NCBI GenBank assembly: GCA_964016885.1
Contig: OZ024740.1
Span: forward strand, 267,468,001 to 267,532,000
DNA: 64,000 nucleotides
Direction of reading: 5' to 3'
Source of the DNA: Eledone cirrhosa
Lineage: Eukaryota
Below are positions 22,261 through 58,876 of the stretch, in pieces (the stretch's first letter is position 1; each line of letters opens with the position of its first letter). Both the position numbers and the translations under genes were made by a program. The notes under the pieces were generated by a model. That model was given only the letters and a program-made list of their open reading frames with translations. It was not told the origin of the DNA and did no database searches.

Positions 22261-22467
22261 TTTCGTTTCTGAATTTGTTTAGCAAGATTCTTTATCTGAA
22301 AACGTGTGTTGAAACCGATATTGTTATACTTTGGGAGGGTCATGTTGCCAATAAGAAACACACGCACCAGTTGCTTTTACTTCAATTTATTATAATAAAT
22401 TGAAGTGAAAGTAACTGGTGTGTGTGTTTCTTATTGGCAACATGACCCTCCCAAAGTATAACAATAT
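22261..22467 (-). mobile_element. TA-flanked fold-back insert: ~57-bp unique tail plus near-perfect ~75-bp-arm palindrome (22318-22467)
   Basis: Arms meet without a spacer at atttatta|taataaat; ~3 mismatches; flanked by (TA)n on both sides; strand inferred from the position of the unique tail. Confidence 0.8.
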
Positions 22468-23583
22468 ATATATATATATATATATATATATTGCCCACTC
22501 CTATTTTCTTTGTTAGTTTATTGCTAAAACTTTACATTAACAAAGTAATGAAATGATGTATTGTTTAGCTTCAAACCAGACTTGATCAAATACACTAATG
22601 ATTAAAATTAATCCAGCCCTGATGAAGGTAACTTTTTTTCTTCAGGACCTGAAATACATTTTCCAATGTACTCTTCCCTTATCAAGGTATCTAGATACTA
22701 TTCCTAAAAGGTCAACTAAACATACAGAGGCTTTTTTCTTGTCATGAGAGAGTAAAATCATTATTCAATGCTATCAAAACATTGAATGGAAGATATATTA
22801 ATACATCATATACCAAGTAACTGCTATTTTGTGATTTTCTACTCCCTTGCCTTTACAATTAATCAATCACACCAGTCTAAGTTCTTTGATCTGTATCATA
22901 TACTCACAAGACATCTGACTAACCTTACTGACTTTAAAGCAGTGATAGTGCTCTGTAGGTGATTCATATCATAAGGAACTTGGATTGTTAGATTTTTGTA
23001 TGAACATATTTATAGCAAGATAATAATGTAAAGAATTTACTGAGATGAACAAAATATATGTTGAAGTATTATCTTATTAATGTATTGCGTGTAGGTGCGT
23101 TTATTCAGCAGAAGAGCTTCTTTTATTGCTAAATTATGCTGCATTTGAAGGTTTGAACAACTTGTGGCCAATATCAAAAGACTGAGCCAGAAATACATAA
23201 CAATGTTAAAAAAACATATCAGTTAAACTTCAAACAAATCAAAAATATAATAGAAGAGAAAGAGACAAAAATATCAGCAAGCAGCCACCATTAAAACCCA
23301 TACTGACCATTACACTATATTTCAATGCTCACTCCTCATATCAGTACCTTTCTTATTCCTCAAATGCCTTCCTTCTCGATCTAGTTCAACACTTAGTTCT
23401 CATGTCAGCTACTCTTTTGTCTAATGTAACAGTCAGTTCTCAAATCTTTCACCAATTTCCACAGTTATCCAGTCCTCAAACCAGCTACAGTCCTTAAATC
23501 TGCTATTCCTTGACCTACTTTAATACCCAATTCCCAAACCAGCAACTCCATGGCCTACTTCAAACCAGCTACTTTTTGACTCA

Positions 23584-23751
23584 CTGTATTTCCCGGCATC
23601 GAAGACACTACGTTTTTCCTAAAATAAGTCTCAAAAATCTACCATGCGTCCTGGAGGCCAAAGGTTGTTTATTATTTTCTTTCAAATTTTGGGTTGTCAA
23701 AACTAGGGTGCGTCCTCAAGGATGAAGTGTCTTCGGTGCCGGGAAATATGG
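23584..23751. mobile_element. pogo/Tc1-mariner-type MITE
   Basis: TIR ctgtatttcccggcatcgaagacac / gtgtcttcggtgccgggaaatatgg; internal gggtgcgtc motif. Confidence 0.75.
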
Positions 23752-23927
23752 TTGTTTAATACTCAATCCTCAAACCAGTTACTCCTTAGCCTACTGCAAG
23801 ACTTATCCCCCAAACCAGCTACTTCATGACTTAATTCAATACTCAGTCATCAAACTTAATACCCCATCCTTAAATCAGTTGCTCCTTGAACTAGGTTTAT
23901 AGTCAATTCTCAAATTATCTACTCGAT

Positions 23928-24102
23928 TAGGGTGGGCTAAAAAATTCATAAGCTGACTATGAAGGATTGATGCTAGAGCTATGAAATCATGCATTAATTT
24001 CAACTCTTATTAATAACTGCATTGTTTCCTTTCAGGGACTATGTTGAAAAATAAATCTCATTTGGTCATTCCATGGTCTATGAACTTTTCAGCTGACCCT
24101 CA
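23928..24102. mobile_element. Mariner-derived MITE (copy of the 9482 family)
   Basis: TIR-like ends and shared interior gctgactatgaa...gggactatgttgaaaaata. Confidence 0.75.
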
Positions 24103-56300: not shown

Positions 56301-57822
56301 AATCATTTTCTTCTTTAACAAAGACCTTAAATTATAATTGATTCAGTCAAACCTAGTAACCAACAGACCTCAAAGTCAAAGAGAGTTGTGGTAGGATTTT
56401 GGAACAGCAAATGCAGAGGAATCAAACTGAATACTGTAAGGCACTTACTGTAAGGTGCTTTACCATATTTGAAATTCCACAGCCTTCTGTTCTTATGCAA
56501 TATAGATAAGTCTTTGATAGAATTCCTTGCTCTGTAGTCAGGCAGCCATTAAAGAAACTAAGTACAGGTATATATCTTGTTTTCATTATTGCTCTTGAGG
56601 GTTAAAAAATGGTTCAAGAAAATTCTTATATGTTGATGGCCACAGCAGAATCTATTCAAGAGCTACAGGAAAAGAGACATATGAGCTGGAGATCAAAGGC
56701 CTAAGAATAACTGTGGCAAATACCCAAATGGTAATTAGAAGCGGAGAGCACAAAAATCCCAGTGATATCTGAGAAAAAGTCTTGTTTGATGTGTAGAATA
56801 AGAGGAAGTAGGGATTCATTTTTGTGTAAACAATGCAATCAAGAATTATATAATATTGCAACAGGATCCCTGAGAGAAAACCAGAGAACTAGACATGATA
56901 GCTGCACAATACTAGTTAGTAGCAGTTGTAGCCAGAAAATGAAGCTCAGGCATTTTACTGTGTGTTGTTAATAGTTTCTATTACTGAAGACACCAAATTA
57001 GTGCTGAAAATATTTGTAATGAAAGCAGCGTAAAATAAAAGAGCGGGTGGGTGGAAGAAGCTTATACATTTCTTATGTTATTTGGAATGAAAGGGCTTTC
57101 TTTGTAGTGCAAAAGACAGACTGGATAAAGTATTTGTAAGAAGTATGTTGCTTCTTACATGTGAAATAGGGGACATTGAGAATGAAAAACCTGAGTACAA
57201 ATGGTGATGTAAAACATTGGGGTACTGCCTTTCAGAAGAGATAAAATACCAAGACCAATTGGCAGTGTTTCTGCAAAGCCAACACCTTTAAACTACACCA
57301 GTATGAAAATACAAATATTAAAATGACAATGATGATATTGTGAGACTGCAAATTTGTAGGGATGGATTATAGTTGATAAATCAACTACTCAATAGATACT
57401 TGGTATTTATTTTCTAAATTGAAGAGAATAAAGTCAGTATTAGCAGGAGTTTCTTCACTATTTTTGACATTCCACTATCTCACAAGCTGGTGCTCTCTTC
57501 CAAATGTTCTACATAAGGCCTTGTCTTATAGAAGCAATGTTTGTCCATAAACAAGATAAAGTAACAACATCCCTCTATGAGCTTGCAAATGAGAAAGGAA
57601 AATAGAGAGGGGGAAGGGAGAGAGGCAAAGATAGAATGAAAGAAAGAGATAGCGGATTGAGAACAACTGACCCCAGTACTTAACCAGCACTATATTTATT
57701 GTTCCCAGAAAGATGACAAGGAAATTTGACTTAAGCAGGTTTTAAAGTCAGATAACAAAAAGCCTGAACAAATACCACAAGACATTTTATCCAAATTTTC
57801 TTCCTTAAATAATTATATAATA

Positions 57823-58001
57823 CCATATATATTCGAATATAAGCCGACGAATATGTGATCAAAAATTAATGGTAGAAGGAGTCAATATTTTATCAATTTT
57901 CATCAACTTCAAATTCTACGTAAATAAGGTTTGGATGTTTGCCCATTTCTCAGACATAAAACAGCTTATATTCGCTTTGGCTTATATTTGGGTATATATG
58001 G
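57823..58001. mobile_element. pogo/Tc1-mariner-type MITE with TA TSD
   Basis: ta-ccatatatattcgaatataagcc / ggcttatatttgggtatatatgg-ta. Confidence 0.75.
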
Positions 58002-58709
58002 TAATTCTTTCTAATTTAGGCAAAAGGCCAGCAATTTGAGGGATGGAGAAAGTCGATTATATTGACTCCAGTACTTGACTGGTATTTTATTTTATGTATC
58101 TCAGAAAGATGAAAGAAATAATAATAGTAATAATAATAATAATAATAATAATAATAATAGTAATTATTTTACTTGCCACAACAGCAACAAATGTGAGGTG
58201 GGGAAACATTACAAGGACAAATTACCAAAAAAAATAATAAGAATAATAAAAATTGAAGAAGAAGACAAAAATATGTACATGCAAAACTATTATTAAGAAA
58301 TCGCGGGTAATTTTTAAGAGCTTCATTTTGTGATGTAATCTGTACTGATGTAGTTGTTATATAATAAATGTGTGGAGTGTGGGAGTAGCAAAATGTGTGA
58401 TACAGTTGAAACAACTTAAATGTTCAAGGTCATGACAGCTAGAGAGAACCTGAACATATTTTGAAGATCATTTTATATGGTGGTGGTGGTGGCGGCAGCG
58501 GTTGTGGTGGTAGTGGTGGTTGTGTTGATGGTTGTTGATTTAGTGGTTGTGTGGCAGGAGGGGATTGAATAAAAGTTGAGGGAGAGAGAGAAAGGGTTGG
58601 GGTTGGGGAACACTTTTCTACATTTGCCAAGAATATTCAATGGCTTGGATGACTTGTTAATGTCAAACTCTATAAACAAACTTTAAAATATATATATATA
58701 TATATATAT

Positions 58710-58876
58710 GTGAAGTAATTCCATCGGAAAAGTCCAGGAAAAAAGAGTGCTCTATGTAGGCAACAGAGCTTAATTATTATTATTATGTAATAAACAACAT
58801 AAGGCAATTATTCCATTTACCAGTGGTTTCTTAAATGGAATAATTGCCTTATGTTGTTTATTACATAATAATAATA
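58710..58876 (-). mobile_element. TA-flanked fold-back element with hammerhead 3' remnant in the loop
   Basis: Perfect ~45-bp arms 58775-58819 / 58832-58876; loop on minus strand reads aGAAA-ccactgg-TA|aatggaa. Confidence 0.75.

What the first reader, a model, noticed from the sequence alone, without database searches (positions are those of the whole stretch)
22261..58876. Common fold-back signature: inverted 5' copy ends at a TAT/ATA microhomology with the TA tract
Seen in 22261, 26561, 30431, 34710, 34932, 37635, 50047, 53121 and 58710: (TA)n - unique tail - palindrome - (TA)n. Where a hammerhead fixes polarity, the unique tail is 3' and the inverted arm is 5'. In most copies the inverted arm stops where its template reads TAT/ATA/TA (acaatat|atat, ttttcctat|ata, ccgtttat|atat, cttatattat|atat). 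Established: Penelope insertions often carry inverted 5' pLTR segments. Inference: cDNA self-primes on a hairpin, copies itself, then anneals to the other broken TA end, a stereotyped integration route that generates palindromes.
Basis: partly seen in the sequence, partly recalled or inferred. Interest (0 to 1): 0.8.

Follow-up and report, generated by a model that had tools for sequence, protein, structure and literature searches.

The report
Penelope retroelements primed from both ends
The TA-flanked palindromes are head-to-head pieces of six Penelope-like retroelement families, likely made when both broken DNA ends each start a cDNA at one of two fixed sites on the element's RNA rather than by one cDNA folding back, which gives a testable answer to how these elements build their inverted ends.

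Summary
In detail: all nine sites are (TA)n, tail, palindrome, (TA)n. They belong to six high-copy families, each with a type I hammerhead motif on the strand that puts the tail 3'. Three families trace to parents with GIY-YIG endonuclease reading frames. This architecture is already published for Penelope-like elements. The fold-back reading fails as the general route. Each family has two fixed 3' ends, distal and proximal, 56-88 nt apart, and 38 of 42 head-to-head pairs in an unselected 1.04 Mb use one of each. The tail-less inverted arm reaches further 5' than the tailed arm in 55 of 127 pairs, by up to 2.9 kb; a copy cannot be longer than its template. TAT microhomology sits at the tail end too, so it likely marks priming, not stopping. 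The arms usually share subfamily variants (30 of 40; 8 by chance). Best model: both ends of a cut TA tract prime cDNA on one RNA, and the two cDNAs are end-joined head to head. Short palindromes likely arise when both run off the RNA's 5' end. Known elements; new genomic evidence on an open mechanism.

The parts
22262..22467 (.). Family D pair: 56-nt tail (22262-22317) and tailed arm on the minus strand, tail-less arm on the plus strand ending at 22467; arms of about equal reach
   Evidence: parent GIY-YIG frame; hammerhead (upstream, not in this copy)
26558..26733 (.). Family A pair: tail (last 24 nt missing) and tailed arm on minus, tail-less arm on plus; tailed arm reaches slightly further
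30431..31735 (-). Family F tail-less inverted arm, about 3.1 copies of a 422-bp hammerhead-bearing tandem unit (1313 nt counted from 30423 in the TA tract); longer than its tailed partner
31738..32580 (+). Family F tailed arm, 843 nt (2 units); tail about 32524-32580 ends at TAT
34711..34907 (.). Family A pair: 77-nt tail 34711-34787, tailed arm 34788-34847 (minus), tail-less arm 34848-34907 (plus); zero-spacer centre at the predicted transcript start
34933..35356 (.). Family B pair: 88-nt tail 34933-35020, tailed arm to about 35187 (minus), tail-less arm 35190-35356 (plus); each arm holds a whole hammerhead (core at 35121 minus and 35256 plus)
   Evidence: parent GIY-YIG frame
37634..37889 (.). 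Family C pair: 63-nt tail and tailed arm on minus, tail-less arm on plus with an internal deletion
38827..38974 (.).
50045..50236 (.). Family A pair: tail-less inverted arm on the left reaches about 10 nt further 5' than the tailed arm; tail 50160-50236 on plus
53122..53304 (.). Family A pair (older subfamily): tail and tailed arm on minus, tail-less arm on plus reaching about 7 nt further
58710..58876 (.). Family E pair: about 63-nt tail and tailed arm on minus (reach -125), tail-less arm on plus (reach -109), 4-nt overlap

Best explanation
These are insertions of Penelope-like retroelements into (TA)n tracts, likely made by two-ended priming: both ends of the cut tract each start a cDNA on the element's RNA, one at a distal and one at a proximal fixed site, and the two cDNAs are likely joined head to head. 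Shown in sequence: Penelope-type parents, two fixed 3' ends per family, one of each per pair, arms of independent length, 2-5 nt TA matches at both kinds of end, and 1-7 nt overlaps or small insertions at the centre. Inferred steps: (1) the GIY-YIG endonuclease cuts both strands of the TA tract; (2) each 3' end pairs by about three bases with a UAU in the RNA; (3) the two reverse transcriptases usually share one RNA (or transcripts of one source locus), the proximal one leading and the distal one following by strand displacement or stalling behind it; (4) host end joining links the two cDNA 3' ends. The tail is the RNA between the two start sites. Short palindromes are inferred to be pairs primed near the 5' end of the transcript, where both cDNAs run off the same RNA end.
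For: Two ends per family: 96 of 105 TA-abutting 3' ends in an unselected 1.044 Mb fall on the distal or proximal site. Pairing rule: 38 of 42 head-to-head pairs are distal+proximal, none is distal+distal or proximal+proximal, 4 have one off-site end. Arm reach (tail-less further / tailed further / tie): family A long 9/12/0, A short 19/19/17, B 16/3/7 and D 7/2/4 (hand tally), E 4/2/6; sum 55/38/34 of 127. Differences in long pairs are 92-2879 nt with overlaps of 1-7 nt in 13 of 21. Microhomology at 8 ends where the parent sequence is known: 3,3,3,2,4,3,5,3 nt against a chance of 0.05-0.15 for 3 nt or more; both tail ends tested give 3. Same source: an 8-nt subfamily tag is identical in both arms in 30 of 40 short pairs, permutation mean 8.3, maximum 17; rare variants are shared by both arms of L203, L205, L208. 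Run-off: furthest reach lies within 6 nt of one position in 45 of 55 short A pairs; that position lies 29 nt (A) and 30 nt (D) downstream of a TATA-like box; none of 30 family-C hits shows shared parent sequence upstream of its boundary. Biochemistry: a purified Penelope-like protein cuts and extends both strands and starts at two RNA sites that bound the tail (PMC11167929).
Against: All evidence is from present-day genomic copies; no empty allele was found, so insertion-time structure is inferred. Recombination between inverted arms could flip the middle and later deletions could shorten an arm, both mimicking a longer tail-less arm. PMC11167929 reports a start site not homologous to the cut DNA and no strand difference in start site, whereas here there is a 2-5 nt match and a strict distal+proximal pairing. 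Ten of 40 tags differ between arms, three by two positions (L004, L031, L203), so some events may use two RNAs. Exceptions to the rule exist in selected sets: one both-tailed pair (L281), one long and two short both-tail-less pairs. The transcript start is a motif prediction; the TATA-like box was seen in two families, is weak or absent in B, and Drosophila Penelope has a TATA-less promoter (PMC2377424). One family-C centre recurs in about 18 of 30 hits (the search pattern favoured it). Long tailed copies whose partner lies beyond my reference were scored as solo (4 in B, 4 in D), which understates 'tailed further'.
Confidence: 0.7

Rival explanations
1. One reading: the tail-primed cDNA folds back on a hairpin, copies itself to the first TAT and anneals to the other TA end; longer tail-less arms come from later flips or deletions.
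For: Predicts the tail on one side, identical variants in both arms and variable centres. Natural micro-hairpins or short palindromes lie at the hotspots of A and C. Tailed arm is longer in 38 of 127 pairs. Self-priming was proposed for such palindromes in PMC3846280.
Against: Tail-less arm longer in 55 of 127 pairs. Eleven family-B pairs have no overlap between arms, so there is no inverted repeat to flip and nothing to copy. B is skewed 16:3 the wrong way (two-sided p 0.004). Long pairs would need loops of 0.15-2.5 kb primed by 1-5 nt. Zero-spacer and 4-nt self-overlap centres occur. An unpaired proximal-ended 1.4-kb copy exists (L078).
Confidence: 0.1
2. Dual priming on two separate RNAs: each DNA end recruits its own RNA-protein complex, and the cDNAs are joined.
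For: Explains independent arm lengths and overlapping arms without strand displacement. Three short pairs have arms with two differences in the 8-nt tag; one pair is tailed at both ends (L281). Dual priming was postulated for L1 (PMC2837659).
Against: Does not by itself give 38 distal+proximal pairs with no same-site pair, nor rare variants shared by both arms, unless one locus dominates the RNA pool and the dimer is asymmetric.
Confidence: 0.12
3. Palindromic masters: a few founder palindromes retrotranspose whole, like short non-autonomous elements, and their centres decay or flip afterwards.
For: Invariant outer junctions; a recurrent centre in family C and a recurrent -46/-257 junction in three B copies; long perfect palindromes are known to rearrange at the centre (recalled).
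Against: 53 distinct centres in 55 short A pairs; 21 long A pairs each with its own two breakpoints; the recurrent C centre occurs in both orientations relative to the tail; parents with reading frames carry the same two end sites. No terminal inverted repeat and target duplication of a MITE: the tail lies outside the palindrome.
Confidence: 0.08

Closest known systems
Endonuclease-containing Penelope-like elements with inverted pLTR and tail (PMC3846280, PMC8557442)
   Same: Head-to-head inverted 5'-truncated copy, palindrome at the junction, tail at one end only, RT plus C-terminal GIY-YIG frame, hammerhead in the pLTR, microsatellite targets, partial tandems.
   Different: Tails here are 56-88 nt, not 30-40. 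Those papers leave the mechanism open or suggest self-priming or endonuclease resolution; arm-length and end-pairing counts were not in the passages I read.
PAc (Poseidon of green anole) in vitro, PMC11167929
   Same: Both strands cut and extended, two reverse transcription start sites with the tail between them, AT-rich targets, predicted dimer.
   Different: PAc starts in an AC-rich stem-loop without homology to the target and shows no strand preference; here both ends have a 2-5 nt TA match and pairs use one site each. The paper's main text does not discuss inverted insertions.
L1 twin priming and postulated dual priming (PMC2837659; original paper recalled, not held)
   Same: Second target end primes an inverted cDNA at an internal RNA site; microhomology at the central junction; non-overlapping inversions as in 11 family-B pairs.
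   Different: In L1 the internal site is opportunistic and the result is usually an inversion with a deletion. Here the second site is fixed per family, used in most insertions, and the arms usually overlap, giving palindromes.
Non-LTR retrozymes (10.64898/2026.07.22.740005)
   Same: Family F (422-bp tandem units, each with a type I hammerhead, no reading frame) fits the definition; family E is a longer non-coding hammerhead unit.
   Different: Families A, B and D are plain 3' or pLTR fragments of coding elements. F shows the same two-end signature, tying retrozyme insertion to the Penelope route (inference).

Membership tests
Penelope-like element (C-terminal GIY-YIG type) | Single ORF with RT followed by GIY-YIG endonuclease with CCHH-type motif | tested here: met
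   Family A: 546-aa frame in L209 with RT motif and C-terminal GIY-YIG-like region; Atlas neighbours at 0.96-0.97 carry RVT_1, HTH_animal and GIY-YIG in shares of 20-100%. Pfam scans gave no hit. B and D: endonuclease-region frames upstream of the same 3' ends. Not found for C, E, F.
Penelope-like element (C-terminal GIY-YIG type) | Partial tandem forming a pseudo-LTR upstream of the ORF | tested here: met
   Family A: about 22 of 30 loci found with the ORF's 5' part carry the same 3' segment about 250 nt upstream, in direct orientation and with variable 5' truncation.
Penelope-like element (C-terminal GIY-YIG type) | Type I hammerhead motif in the pLTR | tested here: met
   Own descriptor matches A-F and H on the sense strand only, 0-1 of 200 shuffles. 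A and C carry the U3:A8 core variant (80 of 90 and 23 of 25 matches in held loci, overlaps not removed). Rfam negative for A and F. Cleavage not tested.
Penelope-like element (C-terminal GIY-YIG type) | Optional tail at one end of inverted pLTRs | tested here: met
   56-88 nt tails; 38 of 42 unselected pairs have it at exactly one end.
Penelope-like element (C-terminal GIY-YIG type) | Clade placement by RT phylogeny (Neptune, Nematis, Hydra, Penelope/Poseidon) | not tested
   No reference clade sequences were held; no tree built.
Naiad/Chlamys PLEs | N-terminal endonuclease and no hammerhead | tested here: not met
   Endonuclease is C-terminal in A, B, D and hammerheads are present.
MITE (non-autonomous DNA transposon) | Fixed consensus with terminal inverted repeats at both ends and target-site duplication | tested here: not met
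   Tail lies outside the palindrome, centres and lengths vary, parents encode RT. Target duplication cannot be read inside TA tracts.
cDNA fold-back (self-primed) insertion | Inverted arm is contained in, and never longer than, the first-strand arm | tested here: not met
   55 of 127 pairs violate it.
Twin priming (one RNA, two primers) | Both target ends prime; arms share the source; central microhomology | tested here: inconclusive
   Sequence signatures fit, but one RNA versus two RNAs from one locus cannot be separated from genomic copies.
Non-LTR retrozyme (family F) | Two or more tandem units each with a type I hammerhead, no ORF | tested here: met
   Five cores in 422-bp units at 30672, 31094, 31516, 31853, 32275; descriptor match on one unit.

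The most novel reading that the evidence does not exclude
Penelope-like elements integrate by programmed twin priming: an RT-endonuclease dimer holds one RNA at two fixed UAU sites 56-88 nt apart and extends both ends of a double-strand cut, so head-to-head insertion is the default product, the tail is the spacing between the two active sites, no separate second-strand priming step is needed, and the genome's tens of thousands of short palindromes are run-off products that mark each family's transcript start.
Probability: 0.45. Interest if true: 0.8.

Novelty: new variant of a known kind. Interest (0 to 1): 0.58.

Why it matters
How Penelope-like elements form their tandem and inverted structures is named as an open question in PMC8557442, and the only full-length biochemistry (PMC11167929) does not address inversions in its main text. 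This genome holds many young copies of at least six families, which turns the question into counts: which ends pair, which arm is longer, and which variants the arms share. The counts favour two-ended priming over self-priming and give exact predictions (two UAU start sites, distal+proximal pairing, run-off at a capped 5' end) for an existing in vitro assay. They also explain a dense class of genomic hairpins (42 pairs in 1.04 Mb for six families) that can be mistaken for MITEs or microRNA precursors.

Tried and rejected
Genome DNA searches with the B tail, D tail and F hammerhead returned nothing, likely because the words are too common; patterns and sampled blocks were used instead. Pfam found no family in five PLE frames. 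Rfam gave sub-threshold microRNA matches from TA repeats and hairpins and no hammerhead among the rows shown. Minimum-energy folds were not significant against shuffles (z -0.5 to -1.2; one of the five inputs was a wrong stretch and is ignored). No RNA holder was listed for the pLTR, so the transcript start is untested. Short-read contigs laid on 58200-59060 break at the TA tracts and show no empty allele. The parent sequence beyond the tail was found for A and F only; searches for B and D gave no continuation beyond a few bases. An extra G at the predicted start (cap copy) looked promising, but most cases parse without it; about four remain, not counted as evidence. and three rows of 54 used references that contained inverted sequence and were redone. 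One search's arm scoring ran across centres and was replaced, which still mis-scores about nine diverged rows. No earlier findings of this scan matched. PMC9977147 (passages) and 10.1101/2024.12.14.628481 (passages) added nothing specific. The original twin-priming paper was not held.
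Full report
1. Setting. The window is bases 267,468,001-267,532,000 of contig C1 in a 3.0-Gb genome, 33% GC and dense in (TA)n. Atlas neighbours of the element's protein are most often molluscan; a mollusc host is an inference. Data used: the window, 1.044 Mb of unselected blocks including it, and about 240 loci from targeted searches.

2. Observation. All nine sites are as described and far above shuffles. Self-comparison shows six families, here A (26561, 34710, 50047, 53121, plus 38802), B (34932), C (37635), D (22261), E (58710) and F (30431). 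A type I hammerhead descriptor matches each on one strand only, which puts the tail 3' in all six.

3. What they are. Family A continues upstream through about 1.3 kb of 3' untranslated sequence into an RT plus GIY-YIG frame. Full-length copies carry the same segment again about 250 nt before the queried part of the ORF, as a partial tandem. Long copies of B and D also run into endonuclease frames. E and F are non-coding hammerhead units; F fits the retrozyme definition. No parent was found for C. Head-to-head inverted pLTRs with a palindrome at the junction and a tail at one end are published (PMC3846280; PMC8557442), as is TA targeting.

4. Two fixed ends. Counting from the distal end as 0, proximal ends are at -77 (A), -88 (B), -63 (C), -56 (D), about -63 (E) and -56 (F). 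In the unselected blocks 96 of 105 TA-abutting 3' ends fall on one of these. Of 42 head-to-head pairs, 38 are distal plus proximal, none is same-site and 4 have one off-site end; 20 distal, 10 proximal and 5 other ends were unpaired at my thresholds. L078 is an unpaired 1.4-kb copy ending at -77, and L067 is a 330-nt tail-less arm joined to a 12-nt stub of tail.

5. Test of fold-back. A self-primed copy cannot reach further 5' than the strand it copies. The 41 hits are 35 loci, of which 22 could be scored as pairs; 13 were unpaired, broken or duplicate. In 21 tailed/tail-less pairs the tail-less arm is longer in 9 and the tailed arm in 12, by 92-2879 nt; centres show 1-7 nt overlap in 13, 1-15 nt insertions in 7 and a 340-nt unassigned stretch in one (three tailed arms have damaged 3' ends). 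Short A pairs: 19 versus 19 with 17 ties of 55, a set that omits copies lacking a whole arm and includes about nine noisy rows. Family B: of 48 rows I kept the 26 with a clear proximal start and dropped 7 unclear, 2 rows of one both-tailed pair and 13 solo; the result is 16 versus 3 with 7 ties, and in 11 the tailed arm is under 80 nt and never reaches the inverted region. Family D: 7 versus 2 with 4 ties among 13 pairs of 28 rows. Family E: 12 of 30 inverted, 4 versus 2 with 6 ties. In the window, 30431 has 1313 nt inverted against 843 nt direct. In family C one micro-hairpin centre recurs, with its loop on the tail-less arm in 11 and on the tailed arm in 7; fold-back from the tailed cDNA allows only the latter.

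6. Microhomology. Where the parent sequence across an end is known, the match to the TA tract is 3, 3, 3, 2, 4, 3, 5 and 3 nt; chance for 3 or more is 0.05-0.15 per site, p about 1e-5, or 1e-3 if the chance is doubled. These are eight sites in six families, not hundreds of copies. Both tail ends tested (A, F) have TAT, so the signature is shared by both ends and is best read as priming. Stuttered restarts at the inverted arm's outer end in L018 and L027 fit an initiation site.

7. Same source. An 8-nt subfamily tag is identical in both arms in 30 of 40 short A pairs (permutation mean 8.3, maximum 17 in 5000) and within one difference in 37. In 18 long pairs arms differ by 2.2 sites per 172 nt against 3.2 between loci, and rare variants are shared within L203, L205 and L208. 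Three pairs differ at two tag positions and may come from two RNAs or conversion.

8. Why so many short palindromes. In 45 of 55 short A pairs the furthest reach is within 6 nt of position -137. That base lies 29 nt after a TATA-like box and in an initiator-like context; the boundary of D lies 30 nt after a TATA box (motif spacing recalled). B and C also have sharp 5' boundaries shared by unpaired copies. I infer that priming on the 5' copy of the pLTR lets both cDNAs run off the transcript start, and that self-complementary bases there guide the join. This step is untested.

9. Mechanism and rivals. PMC11167929 (main text read up to the early methods; its three held supplement files gave no match for four terms; figures not seen, and Fig. 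S2 may bear on pairing) shows a Penelope-like protein cutting and extending both strands from two start sites that bound the tail. The genomic counts are what that chemistry would leave if both ends are extended in one event and then end-joined. I give 0.70 to two-ended priming mostly on one RNA, 0.12 to two RNAs, 0.10 to fold-back with later flips or deletions, and 0.08 to palindromic masters. The main weakness is that recombination between arms and later deletion cannot be excluded without empty alleles; the 11 non-overlapping B pairs and the 16:3 skew are the cases those processes explain least well.

10. Novelty. The elements and their architecture are known, and twin or dual priming is known for L1 (PMC2837659, passages). 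I found no paper applying it to Penelope inverted pLTRs in six searches of the open library; subscription journals and several older Penelope papers are not covered. Papers seen: PMC11167929 (parts 1-2 of 4 and passages), PMC3846280, PMC8557442, PMC2837659, PMC2377424, PMC9977147 and 10.1101/2024.12.14.628481 (passages only), 10.64898/2026.07.22.740005 (first of five parts; supplements not seen). Interest 0.58.

Noticed in passing
window 5813-7746: Inverted duplication with 813-nt arms, 99% identical, of mostly single-copy host DNA (only the two arms match in the genome), with a nested shorter hairpin in the spacer. Not one of the six families; a candidate for a true fold-back duplication.
   Followed up: partly
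window 40007-41147: Two copies of a LINE-derived repeat meet tail to tail, their (GAT)n/(ATC)n tails joined at ATAT near 40485, as if both strands of one TA site were used in opposite directions.
   Followed up: no
window 52866-53087: TA-flanked 222-nt piece with a complete type I hammerhead on the minus strand and no inverted arm (family H).
   Followed up: partly
window 7789-7894 and 12254-12593: Older TA-flanked palindromes (83% and 71% arm identity) with no tail on either side; both have relatives elsewhere.
   Followed up: partly
families A and C, e.g. L194:9100-9106: Hammerhead core carries U at position 3 and A at position 8, a compensatory swap of the usual C3:G8 pair, in 80 of 90 and 23 of 25 matches. 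The predicted transcript start of A lies inside the stem II loop, so transcripts starting there would lack half the ribozyme.
   Followed up: partly
L009, L029, C2 block 94959-95187: Centres contain short templated repeats of arm sequence, the kind of scar attributed to polymerase theta end joining (recalled).
   Followed up: no
L177 (family E): A short tailed inverted arm matching the 3' hammerhead copy is joined to a diverged 5' hammerhead copy 1.4 kb upstream, so the inverted arm is not a copy of its neighbour.
   Followed up: no
C3 block about 75300-84730: Array of about 20 family-F-like units in two opposite orientations, a much larger head-to-head retrozyme array.
   Followed up: no
window 50924-52235: Long low-complexity (ACC/ACT/CAC)n region giving His/Thr/Pro-rich open frames; looks like a degenerate trinucleotide satellite.
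   Followed up: no
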